From: an uncultured Alphaproteobacteria bacterium
Lineage (GTDB): Bacteria > Pseudomonadota > Alphaproteobacteria > Sphingomonadales > Sphingomonadaceae
NCBI GenBank assembly: GCA_963790285.1
Contig: CAWBNV010000001.1
Location: forward strand, 423,891 to 487,890
DNA length: 64,000 bases
Direction: 5' to 3'
The stretch's first letter is position 1; every line of letters begins with the position of its first letter. Of the stretch, positions 49,250 through 50,134 are shown piece by piece. The position numbers were made by a program, and so were the translations under genes. A model generated the notes under the pieces. That model was not told the DNA's origin. It ran no database searches and saw nothing but the letters and a program-made list of their open reading frames with translations.

Positions 49250-49264
49250 GAACGAACCAAGAAC
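49250..49264 (-). promoter_or_regulatory. Alphaproteobacterial LexA (SOS) box
   Basis: GAAC-gaaccaa-GAAC (GTTC-N7-GTTC on the minus strand), immediately downstream of a minus-strand TATGAT -10 hexamer (49270-49265). Confidence 0.65.
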
Positions 49265-49314
49265 ATCATAATGGATCGTCCGGGTGTAGGACAGCGGTTT
49301 GTCGTGGCGGACTT

Positions 49315-49331
49315 CGCCCATTTGCAGACAT
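49315..49331 (+). repeat. Cassette-boundary repeat 1 (right half only)
   Basis: CGCCCATTTGCAGACAT matches the right halves of the repeats at 49673 and 50107; the left palindrome arm is absent. Confidence 0.6.
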
Positions 49332-49356
49332 AACGCCCCTAGCGTAAATCGTGCGT

Positions 49357-49668
49357 ATGCGCTGGGTGACGATTGCCAAGGTATCGCTGCTTGCGCTGGC
49401 CGTTCCGGCTACAATTCTATCTGTTGAAGAGTTGGCGGTCGGACTGACCTATGGGGGCAATCTGTGGAGAACGGATCGCCCGTTCGCGATCGCGCTATGG
49501 CTCGCCGTCGTGGTGTTCCCTCTGTTCATTGGCACGGCAATGGGTGCAGCGAAGACGTCTCGGCGGCTTTGGATCGTGACGGGGGTTTCGTGGGCCTTTG
49601 CCGCTTTTTGGGTATGTGAGAGCTTTGTTTGGATGCCTTGGGCACACGGCGGCCCTTGGGGCTGGTAA
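49357..49668 (+). CDS. Hypothetical small membrane protein (3 predicted TM)
   Basis: MRWVTIAKVSLLALAV...; three hydrophobic segments; many A/T-ending codons unlike the flanking genes. Alternative GTG start at 49351. Confidence 0.65.
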   Translation: MRWVTIAKVSLLALAVPATILSVEELAVGLTYGGNLWRTDRPFAIALWLAVVVFPLFIGTAMGAAKTSRRLWIVTGVSWAFAAFWVCESFVWMPWAHGGPWGW

Positions 49669-49672
49669 AGTT

Positions 49673-49702
49673 AGCGTCCGCCGTCGCCCAATTGCCGACG
49701 TT
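49673..49702 (+). repeat. Cassette-boundary repeat 2 (imperfect palindrome)
   Basis: AGCGTCCGC-cgtCGCCCAatt-GCCGACGTT, 4 nt after the upstream stop. Confidence 0.62.
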
Positions 49703-49726
49703 CACTCACCACTGCATGATCTCGGT

Positions 49727-50107
49727 ATGACGGAACAAACCTCAAATCCGCTTCCCACCTTCTTCCTTCGAAGCGTCACCTTCGATCTGGAGCGCTTGCT
49801 GCTGATCCTCGAAGATGGAGGGGGGAACCTGCTGCTCGAAGTTTCATTTGCGCGGCCACGAGCATATCGCGTCTACGCCGAAAGCGATTATCAGAAGTAT
49901 CTCAACGACTTCACGGGCAGTCCGTTGATTGAAACCGTAGACTCAGGGTGCGGAGTCGAGCTCAGCAGACACGCCCCTTACCTGCAAGAGTATCGTGCAC
50001 ACGTGCGCGCGCAGGAGCCGGAGGAAACTTTCTCCTGTCTCATCAGAACGCCGGATCACTGCGTCGAGGTCATTTGCTTCGAGGAGCCAACGCTTCGGCG
50101 CTCGTAA
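49727..50107 (+). CDS. Hypothetical protein
   Basis: 126 aa [10 protein letters not shown]...[17 protein letters not shown]...[19 protein letters not shown]; globular-looking, atypical codon usage. Confidence 0.7.
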
Positions 50108-50134
50108 TGTCCGTTAACCGCCCATCCCGGACAT
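50107..50134 (+). repeat. Cassette-boundary repeat 3 (palindrome)
   Basis: ATGTCCG-ttaacCGCCCAtcc-CGGACAT: perfect 7-bp arms, overlapping the TAA stop. Confidence 0.62.

What the first reader, a model, noticed from the sequence alone, without database searches (positions are those of the whole stretch)
49250..50134. Integron-like mini cassette array: palindromic CGCCCA-core repeats, each carrying a promoter, beside an SOS-controlled platform
Seen in sequence: two small genes with atypical (A/T-richer) codon usage, 49357-49668 and 49727-50107, are bracketed by three related repeats with a shared CGCCCA core: ...CGCCCATTTGCAGACAT (49315), AGCGTCCGC-cgtCGCCCAatt-GCCGACGTT (49673) and ATGTCCG-ttaacCGCCCAtcc-CGGACAT (50107). 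Repeats 2 and 3 are hairpins directly at the stop codons. Repeat 1 has only the right arm, as a platform/cassette hybrid junction would. Upstream is a divergent promoter (-10 TATGAT) with a GTTC-N7-GTTC LexA box. Established: integrons combine a divergent, LexA-repressed integrase promoter, an attI site and single-gene cassettes ending in palindromic attC sites. Inference: this may be a non-canonical gene-capture array that uses about 28-bp palindromes (much shorter than attC, with no GTTRRRY core), mobilised by a recombinase encoded elsewhere or since deleted. No integrase is visible in the window.
Basis: partly seen in the sequence, partly recalled or inferred. Interest (0 to 1): 0.8.

Follow-up and report, generated by a model that had tools for sequence, protein, structure and literature searches.

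The report
Orphan gene cassettes, mini-recombinase sites
Two small foreign genes sit between three copies of a 28-base site that marks the exact edges of the same genes when they turn up at unrelated places in other bacteria, so they are likely gene cassettes moved by a very small recombinase not found in this genome, an integron-like system in a bacterial class reported to have no integrons.

Summary
The three repeats are real: 49304-49331, 49674-49701 and 50107-50134. They belong to a family of 28-bp sites (11-bp arm, 6-7-bp spacer, inverted 11-bp arm) found in 88 of 301 genomes of the order. Homologues of both genes lie at unrelated loci in other genera, and DNA homology starts and ends at the sites. 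Sites are co-oriented (80 of 88 neighbour pairs) and polar: CG-type spacer first in 42 of 49 arrays, CC-type last in 39 of 49. The right arm often supplies a -35 hexamer; the left arm often overlaps the stop codon. The best enzyme candidate is a ~210-aa tyrosine recombinase lacking the usual N-terminal domain, whose own gene is bounded by these sites; it was not found in this genome. The rival is host XerC, whose dif arm resembles the sites here. The SOS platform is not supported: the LexA box is there, but no recombinase or remnant lies behind it, and only 1 of 183 sites elsewhere has such a box. The array fails the integron and dif-module tests. Ten literature searches found no description. 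No recombination was shown experimentally.

The parts
48354..49037 (+). piuC/ybiX-type Fe(II)/2-oxoglutarate hydroxylase, left flank (context, not part of the array)
   Evidence: Pfam PF13640 and PF18331; homologues at 83-88% DNA identity in the genus
49037..49300 (-). Copy of a dispersed, genus-wide 150-280-bp promoter-bearing element (TGTCCTACA at one end, AAGTTCAC-type repeats at the other); not specific to the cassette system
49250..49264 (-). GTTC-N7-GTTC LexA-type box just downstream of the leftward -10; no recombinase gene or remnant behind it
   Evidence: motif named from the finding and from recall of alphaproteobacterial LexA
49265..49294 (-). Leftward promoter-like pair CTGTCC-18-TATGAT
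   Evidence: sequence; the same spacing recurs in other copies of the element; below the strict sigma-70 scan threshold
49304..49331 (+). Site 1: worn left arm, spacer CGCCCA (CG-type), good right arm holding TTGCAG
   Evidence: score 18.7 with a matrix trained on other genomes
49357..49668 (+). ORF1, 103-aa predicted membrane protein (three hydrophobic stretches), cargo of cassette 1 (370 bp spacer to spacer)
   Evidence: 2 homologues besides itself; a 32% homologue in genome G579 is also site-bounded and low-GC; no Pfam, NCBIfam or PADLOC hit
49674..49701 (+). Site 2: spacer CGCCCA, identical to site 1; right arm supplies TTGCCG, 17 nt before CATGAT
   Evidence: score 19.5; homology to L113 starts here
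49727..50107 (+). ORF2, 126-aa protein, cargo of cassette 2 (433 bp); predicted fold weakly resembles polymorphic-toxin immunity proteins
   Evidence: 38 database proteins including itself; site-bounded at unrelated loci; model pLDDT 88.5; 8owu PIM7 Z 6.2, rmsd 4.9, 90 aligned; 5v77 Z 6.5; Atlas neighbour of homologue P0005 auto-named 'putative Immunity protein 50'
50107..50134 (+). Site 3: spacer CCGCCC (CC-type); its first base is the last base of the ORF2 stop codon; left arm matches the genome's dif XerC arm at 10 of 11
   Evidence: score 26.3; sites at the same position in G011 and G003
50148..50280 (.). Separate multi-copy GC-rich repeat at the gor 3' end (context)
   Evidence: about ten further copies at E below 1e-4 in this genome; copies across the genus
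50282..50614 (-). C-terminal part of glutathione reductase (gor), right flank (context)
   Evidence: Pfam PF02852

Best explanation
The three repeats are directly repeated 28-bp sites (arm, spacer, inverted arm) that mark the edges of two single-gene modules, and they are likely crossover sites of a ~210-residue tyrosine recombinase that would act in trans and was not found in this genome. SHOWN: the site family and its 11-6/7-11 layout; same-direction arrays scattered between housekeeping genes; gene homology that starts and stops at the spacers; polarity (CG-type spacer upstream, CC-type downstream); a -35 hexamer in the upstream right arm; stop codons fused to the downstream left arm; and a small recombinase with all catalytic residues whose own gene is bounded by the same sites. 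INFERRED: the enzyme binds the inverted arms on double-stranded DNA and exchanges strands in the spacer. Modules would enter or leave either as circles, where spacers match (cassette 1, CGCCCA on both sides, predicted 370-bp circle), or by double crossover at a CG pair and a CC pair (cassette 2, mismatched spacers, predicted to be stable). Each module brings its own promoter, so no platform is needed. This array would be an orphan left after a mobile copy of the recombinase passed through.
For: Family: strict pattern in 88 of 301 genomes, 74 of 206 in the window's family; 89 training sites, 80 with 6-bp and 9 with 7-bp spacers. Cassette behaviour: of 14 ORF2-homologue loci, all 11 with an intact, readable 5' end have a right arm upstream, and 11 of 14 have a left arm at the stop (read by eye). 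Two 95.6%-identical copies in one Caulobacter MAG share DNA only from spacer to spacer. Window against L113: homology 49676-50113. The ORF1 homologue is site-bounded. G011 has a different two-cassette array, with the same CGCCCA spacer, at the same gor position; G017 has piuC and gor adjacent; G016 has no site there. Polarity and orientation: 42/49, 39/49, 80/88. -10-like hexamer 16-18 nt after TTG in 30 of 78 arms against 4.1 expected, 28 of them at CG-type sites. Enzyme: 210 aa, aligns only to the catalytic domain of XerD; R61, K89, H158, R161, H184, Y193 invariant in 22 rows; found in 83 of 301 genomes, 78 of 206 in the family and 5 of 94 outside it, like the sites (74/206 and 13/94). 13 of 29 recombinase loci have a site 60-99 nt after the stop, with 1 other hit on that strand in the rest of 1.4 kb; 12 of 29 have a core 60-69 nt before the start. 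Homology between recombinase loci ends 81-91 nt after the stop in 6 of 11 chosen pairs. On plasmids of alpha-, beta- and gammaproteobacteria 9 of 14 recombinase genes have a site or arm within 250 nt (12 hits in 7.0 kb against 13 in 34 kb). Site arms stay the same in genomes whose dif XerC arm differs: G041, G057, G169, G173, G174.
Against: No genome-level co-occurrence of sites and recombinase within the family: 31 of 74 against 47 of 132, p 0.37; for two or more strict sites, 17 of 29 (lists typed). Site-rich G287, G144 and G291, and this genome (87% complete), have only Xer-level matches to the recombinase profile. Being bounded by sites is what any cargo gene shows, so it does not prove the recombinase is the engine; many of the 29 loci are kin. 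In the window's own genus the matrix found no site beside six recombinase loci. A cassette's two inner arms are no more complementary than shuffled pairs (6.44 against 6.51 of 8). No recombinase lay within 700 nt of any array among 97 neighbouring proteins. L035 and L036 carry the same cassette behind a CC and a CG spacer, so strict spacer identity cannot always be required. No excised circle or experiment.
Confidence: 0.6

Rival explanations
1. The sites are dif-derived sites with two XerC-type arms, recombined by host XerC (alone, with XerD, or with the small recombinase as partner). The small recombinase gene is then a passenger or helper.
For: The genome's single dif-like site (C3:80644-80671) has a XerC arm matching site 3's left arm at 10 of 11 and the right arms at 8, 6 and 8 of 11. 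Same 11-6-11 layout as pdif (PMC12907356, passages). XerC and XerD are present in all 5 genomes tested, including site-rich ones without the small recombinase.
Against: The inner ATAA/TTAT bases shared by the dif matches (fixed by my search pattern) and by the pdif table are replaced by CTTT and ATTG in the sites. No XerD arm (3-4 of 11). Only 9 of 59 family genomes with a dif match have GTCYG in the XerC arm (counted by eye), whereas the site arm is constant. Sites are in direct repeat, not alternating.
Confidence: 0.2
2. The repeats are REP-like or promoter-bearing short repeats with no dedicated recombinase. Genes are exchanged by homologous or microhomology recombination between copies, or by insertion sequences that target them.
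For: No cognate enzyme in several site-rich genomes; an IS30-family element sits in the middle of sites in G174; the arms double as -35 elements.
Against: 28 bp with mismatches is short for RecA-type exchange (established knowledge); fixed spacer length, polarity and co-orientation; fixed position beside a recombinase gene; no Y1 transposase in 5 genomes.
Confidence: 0.1
3. The sites are recognised as single-stranded hairpins, like attC or REP, by an unidentified enzyme.
For: Consensus arms can pair and site 3 folds; the spacer tolerates mismatches and 6 or 7 bases.
Against: Sites 1 and 2 do not fold end to end; no arm covariation; no IntI or Y1 enzyme; the Y2 search found nothing but its controls did not ring.
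Confidence: 0.06
4. One reading: an integron-like unit with its own SOS-controlled platform (LexA-repressed divergent promoter plus attI-like site) whose recombinase gene was deleted.
For: LexA-type box and divergent promoter 10-55 bp from site 1; the same promoter element lies near sites in G003, G008 and G155.
Against: The element is dispersed; 2 of 41 matches have the box; 1 of 183 sites has a box upstream; no recombinase remnant; relatives have the element at this locus with no box and no site (G016); no GAAC-N7-GAAC box was noticed in the printed 110 nt upstream of 29 recombinase genes (by eye).
Confidence: 0.04

Closest known systems
Integrons (IntI, attI, attC cassettes) and CALINs (Cury et al. 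2016, PMC4889954, passages read)
   Same: Same-direction arrays of mostly single small accessory genes separated by recombination sites; stop codons fused to the site; cargo such as GNAT, SnoaL and cupin proteins; arrays often in genomes lacking the enzyme, as for half of CALINs.
   Different: 28-bp sites without the attC core or length; no IntI; no shared promoter or attI platform, since modules carry their own promoter; many short arrays scattered over the chromosome; two spacer types with polarity; found in Alphaproteobacteria, where that paper found no integron, In0 or CALIN in 243 genomes.
dif (pdif) modules of Acinetobacter, XerC/XerD (PMC13141974 and PMC12907356, passages read)
   Same: 28-bp 11-6-11 sites bounding exchangeable gene modules; replacement of single modules at matching spacers; tolerance of small spacer mismatches; targeting by insertion sequences (PMC10132070, search listing and start of abstract only).
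   Different: Two similar arms instead of a XerC arm and a XerD arm; inner ATAA/TTAT missing; sites mostly in direct repeat rather than alternating C/D and D/C; few spacer types; association with a separate small recombinase; mainly chromosomal.
FimB/FimE-type short tyrosine invertases, and heterospecific lox cassette exchange (both recalled; FimB/FimE models hit weakly)
   Same: About 200-aa recombinases without the N-terminal domain; exchange of a segment flanked by two non-identical spacers.
   Different: FimB/FimE invert one fixed switch; scores here are 18-20 bits against cut-offs of about 221. lox exchange is an engineered system.

Membership tests
Integron / CALIN | IntI integron integrase | tested here: not met
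   TIGR02249 best 79.8 bits in this genome against cut-off 265; candidate enzyme 25 bits. Genome is 87% complete.
Integron / CALIN | attC sites (GTTRRRY-type core, R/L boxes, 55-141 bp; definition recalled) | tested here: not met
   Sites are 28 bp without that core; no Rfam match at E 1 over 48900-50400. IntegronFinder's own attC model was not run.
Integron / CALIN | Co-oriented array of single-gene cassettes | tested here: met
   80 of 88 neighbour pairs co-oriented; longest ORF covers a median 85% of the segment, 54 of 77 in the sites' direction
Integron / CALIN | attI plus Pc platform beside an SOS-controlled integrase promoter | tested here: not met
Integron / CALIN | Recombination of a folded single strand | not testable with these tools
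   indirect only: weak folding, no arm covariation
pdif / dif modules | 28-bp site of two 11-bp arms and a 6-bp spacer | tested here: met
   80 of 89 training sites have a 6-bp spacer (the pattern allowed only 6 or 7)
pdif / dif modules | One XerC arm and one XerD arm resembling the host dif | tested here: not met
   XerD arm 3-4 of 11; XerC arm 5-10 of 11, with inner ATAA absent from the consensus
pdif / dif modules | Alternating inverse orientation of sites (C and D modules) | tested here: not met
   8 of 88 neighbour pairs opposed
pdif / dif modules | Dependence on XerC/XerD | not testable with these tools
   needs genetics
REP/RAYT or IS91-type HUH systems | Y1 or Y2 HUH transposase in the genome | tested here: inconclusive
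   PF01797 0 of 5 genomes, controls rang in 6 of 14; PF04986 0 of 5, controls silent
Tyrosine recombinase superfamily (candidate enzyme, encoded in other genomes) | R-K-H-R-H-Y catalytic residues in a catalytic domain | tested here: met
   PF00589 above cut-off; invariant residues in alignment A2; alignment to XerD 124-283

The most novel reading that the evidence does not exclude
A third natural gene-cassette system beside integrons and dif modules. A catalytic-domain-only tyrosine recombinase, itself a site-bounded mobile unit, loads self-promoted single-gene modules at two-type 28-bp sites scattered over proteobacterial chromosomes and swaps them by natural heterospecific cassette exchange. 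It would fill the role of integrons in Alphaproteobacteria, and this locus is an orphan array.
Probability: 0.5. Interest if true: 0.9.

Novelty: new variant of a known kind. Interest (0 to 1): 0.76.

Why it matters
Cury et al. 2016 (PMC4889954, passages) call the absence of integrons from Alphaproteobacteria 'extremely puzzling'. A widespread cassette system with other sites and another enzyme would give that question a directly testable answer. It would explain many low-GC orphan genes between housekeeping genes in sphingomonads and caulobacters, and offer a way to mine them by their borders. It would also supply a 210-aa recombinase with naturally occurring non-identical spacers as a compact genetic tool. 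The locus itself is a small orphan example; its value is that both cargo genes can be followed into other genera with borders at the sites.

Tried and rejected
De novo repeat finder missed the family among GC-rich noise. A loose palindrome scan was unspecific. The half-site pattern CGCCCA-N3/4-CNGACRY across the genus was no better than its control. Pfam on 97 proteins of 150 aa or more within 700 nt of sites: no recombinase (six of 103 candidates, among them the window's own and the IS30 protein, were left out). The shared 'platform' at two G174 arrays proved to be an IS30 end. Y1 and Y2 transposases not found (Y2 control silent). Phage-type integrases had no sites within 1.5 kb (0 of 12), Xer loci 2 of 10. 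Viral contigs: 8 stretches, no integrase among the proteins checked. Arm covariation negative; that script stopped on an error before its last test, which was rerun. Fold of the small recombinase unusable (pLDDT 46), so the missing N-terminal domain rests on sequence alignment only. ORF2 fold matches are middling (Z about 6, the range of common arrangements), so 'immunity protein' is a lead only. No sequencing run was listed, so circles and expression are untested. The Atlas did not hold ORF1, ORF2 or P0041. The test of the short leftward reading frame failed because I used the wrong frame, so its conservation is untested. The bare 9-mer TGTCCTACA is only 41 against 30 in the reversed control; the element call rests on the shared downstream motif (33 of 41 against 30 of 400 random windows). 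GC skew on contig C3 was too flat to confirm dif. Literature: ten searches found no description; the library lacks most subscription papers. Dropped rows: L040 (21-residue Nocardia match) from the ORF2 count; duplicate and own-genome loci from array statistics.

Full report
OBSERVATION. Between piuC (PF13640, PF18331) and gor (PF02852) GC falls from about 0.72 to 0.54-0.60. ORF1 (49357-49668) and ORF2 (49727-50107) have GC3 0.66 against 0.94-0.97 in neighbours. Three related 28-mers bracket them. Read as 11-6-11 they are at 49304, 49674 and 50107, with spacers CGCCCA, CGCCCA and CCGCCC. A matrix trained on 89 sites from other genomes ranks them first to third in the window and among 8 hits at score 18 or more in the genome (control 4; at 20, 5 against 0). 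Only site 3 folds end to end and only site 3 overlaps a stop. The LexA-type box (49250-49264) and leftward TATGAT are present.

THE SITE FAMILY. A strict pattern hits 88 of 301 genomes of the order, 74 of 206 in the window's family and 13 of 94 outside it; about 25 genomes have a control hit, counted by eye. Site-rich genomes hold many short arrays: a half-site pattern gives 50 matches in G265 against 6 in the control. In fetched loci there were 183 distinct sites in 88 clusters, 49 with two or more. These loci were chosen because they held sites or related genes, so they are not a random sample. Neighbours are co-oriented in 80 of 88 pairs; the first site has a CG-type spacer in 42 of 49 arrays and the last a CC-type spacer in 39 of 49. 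Median spacing is about 490 bp. A -10-like hexamer follows the TTG of the right arm at 16-18 nt in 30 of 78 arms against 4.1 expected, 28 of them at CG-type sites. In CG-to-CC segments 29 of 43 genes run in the sites' direction and 20 stop within 10 nt of the left arm; CC-to-CG segments are mostly 37-bp doublets. Arrays lie between housekeeping genes, and cargo includes GNAT, SnoaL, cupin, HD and LysE proteins. The window fits: CG, CG, CC.

THE GENES ARE CASSETTES. ORF2 has 38 database matches, most of 126 aa. Fourteen loci were recovered (one spurious row dropped; L032 and L114 may be the same locus), from records titled Sphingomonas, Caulobacter, Phenylobacterium, Polymorphobacter and Sandarakinorhabdus and from metagenomes. 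All 11 with an intact readable 5' end have a right arm just upstream; 11 of 14 have a left arm at the stop. Two copies 95.6% identical in one Caulobacter MAG align only from ACCC of the upstream spacer to the end of the downstream spacer. The window and L113 align from 49676 to 50113. ORF1 has few relatives; one at 32% in 1 of 400 genomes is a low-GC gene with a worn site before it and a CC-type site after it. At the orthologous place in the genus, G017 has piuC and gor adjacent, G010 has other genes, G016 has no site, G003 has a site in the position of site 3, and G011 has its own CG-CC-CC array with spacer CGCCCA. This genome has further sites: a convergent pair around a 3.2-kb island beside tRNA-Lys, and others on C4 and C5.

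THE PLATFORM. 49037-49300 resembles a dispersed element of the genus. TGTCCTACA occurs 41 times in the genome, 33 times with a shared downstream motif; two of the copies shown precede genes for a helix-turn-helix-like protein (fold label recalled). Two of 41 carry a LexA-type box. The small recombinase has no match here beyond Xer level, and IntI is absent. Of 183 sites elsewhere, 1 has a LexA-type box within 150 nt upstream and 2 touch this element. In the genus the element is near a site in G003 and G008, so some local preference is possible. The box may be a real SOS operator, but it is not a feature of the system.

THE ENZYME. PF00589 in five genomes returned Xer genes, phage-type integrases and a 210-aa protein. 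Earlier scan notes mentioning a 'tiny recombinase' made me look at it; I then tested it. It aligns only to the catalytic domain of XerD, keeps R61, K89, H158, R161, H184 and Y193, and scores far below Xer, IntI and FimB/FimE cut-offs. It occurs in 83 of 301 genomes, 4 of 20 of the genus after discounting one Xer-level match, and 296 plasmid records across Proteobacteria. In the 29 best loci, 13 have a left arm plus core 60-99 nt after the stop, facing the gene, and 12 a core 60-69 nt before the start; homology between loci ends at +81 to +91 in 6 of 11 pairs that I chose for similarity. Fourteen of the 40 listed plasmid hits, chosen for taxonomic spread, show sites or arms within 250 nt in 9 cases. 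Against it: no co-occurrence within the family (31/74 against 47/132, p 0.37; 17 of 29 for two or more sites); not found in G287, G144, G291 or this genome; no matrix hit at six loci of the genus; and site-bounding alone would fit a passenger.

THE XER RIVAL. A single dif-like site on contig C3 has a XerC arm matching site 3's left arm at 10 of 11. The same dif pattern is found in 58 of 68 family genomes, mostly once. The outer part of that arm varies, with GTCYG in 9 of 59, while the cassette arm is constant, also in G041, G057, G169, G173 and G174 where dif differs. The sites lack the inner ATAA/TTAT and a XerD arm. I give this rival 0.2. A shared ancestry of site and dif arm is plausible and untested.

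MECHANISM. Shown: layout, borders, polarity, built-in promoter, coupling to the recombinase gene. Inferred from tyrosine-recombinase chemistry (established knowledge) and from dif modules, where matched or nearly matched spacers allow excision and single modules are replaced through two crossovers (PMC13141974, passages): strand exchange in the spacer, circles between matched spacers, replacement at a CG and a CC pair. This predicts that cassette 1 can excise as 370 bp and that cassette 2 is stable. L035 against L036 shows some tolerance of mismatch. Lack of arm covariation and weak folding favour double-stranded recognition but do not prove it.

CARGO. ORF1 is a predicted membrane protein with no family. 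The ORF2 model (pLDDT 88.5) is closest to an uncharacterised Neisseria protein (Z 6.5, rmsd 4.6, 84 aligned) and the immunity protein PIM7 (Z 6.2, rmsd 4.9, 90 aligned); a homologue's nearest Atlas structure is auto-named Immunity protein 50. An orphan immunity protein is a lead only.

COMPARISON AND NOVELTY. It works like an integron cassette array and has sites shaped like pdif, but it fails the defining tests of both (membership table). Cury et al. found no integron, In0 or CALIN in 243 alphaproteobacterial genomes (PMC4889954, passages). The tyrosine-recombinase classification preprint (10.1101/542381, passages) showed no matching subgroup in the passages seen; its supplements were not read and may list this family. 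PMC12907356 was read in passages; other papers were seen as search listings only. Ten searches found no description. Several earlier notes of this scan reach the same reading on other genomes; they are unchecked and are not independent evidence. Verdict: a real orphan two-cassette array of a system I could not find described; sites as module borders about 0.9, small recombinase as engine about 0.6; interest 0.76.

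Noticed in passing
window 49037-49300; 41 matches in G000; loci L089-L101: Dispersed 150-280-bp element with a promoter whose -35 region is TGTCCTACA and AAGTTCAC-type repeats downstream. 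Two copies precede genes for a conserved small-domain protein with a DGWTP motif (C1 near 417,700; C4 near 277,700). Possibly non-coding remnants of that gene family or an undescribed RNA.
   Followed up: partly
window 50148-50280: A third multi-copy GC-rich repeat, about ten further copies in the genome and present across the genus at the gor 3' end.
   Followed up: no
L045:4430-5680 and L043 near 9917 (G174): An IS30-family element (386-aa transposase, family label recalled from its sequence) inserted into the spacer of cassette sites at two places: a site-targeting insertion sequence.
   Followed up: partly
G000 C3:80644-80671: Candidate dif site; the same pattern gives mostly one match per genome in 58 of 68 family genomes, a usable sphingomonad dif consensus.
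   Followed up: partly
G000 C1:24771-28010 (L223): tRNA-Lys followed by a 3.2-kb island between two convergent sites with spacer CGCCCA, holding a PEP-CTERM-like gene and a regulator; predicted invertible.
   Followed up: partly
G000 C4:272400-272810 and C5:330600-330670: Further low-GC inserts bounded by sites of the same family, one with the GGCAG arm variant.
   Followed up: partly
G000 C4 near 248140: The only other TGTCCTACA promoter with a LexA-type box precedes a short ORF of about 55 aa.
   Followed up: no
window 46052-48342 and 50282-51673: The TonB-dependent receptor and gor genes are split across frames, which looks like indel errors of the assembly rather than biology.
   Followed up: no
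L039, L123, L133, L137: Pairs of sites 35-38 bp apart with no gene between them, mostly CC-type then CG-type.
   Followed up: partly
L113 and L114, 70 bp upstream of the first site: A shared CCTGCACCC-containing repeat precedes the ORF2 cassette in both loci.
   Followed up: no
L110 (viral contig): Arrays made only of CG-type sites, in both orientations, beside a phage baseplate gene.
   Followed up: no
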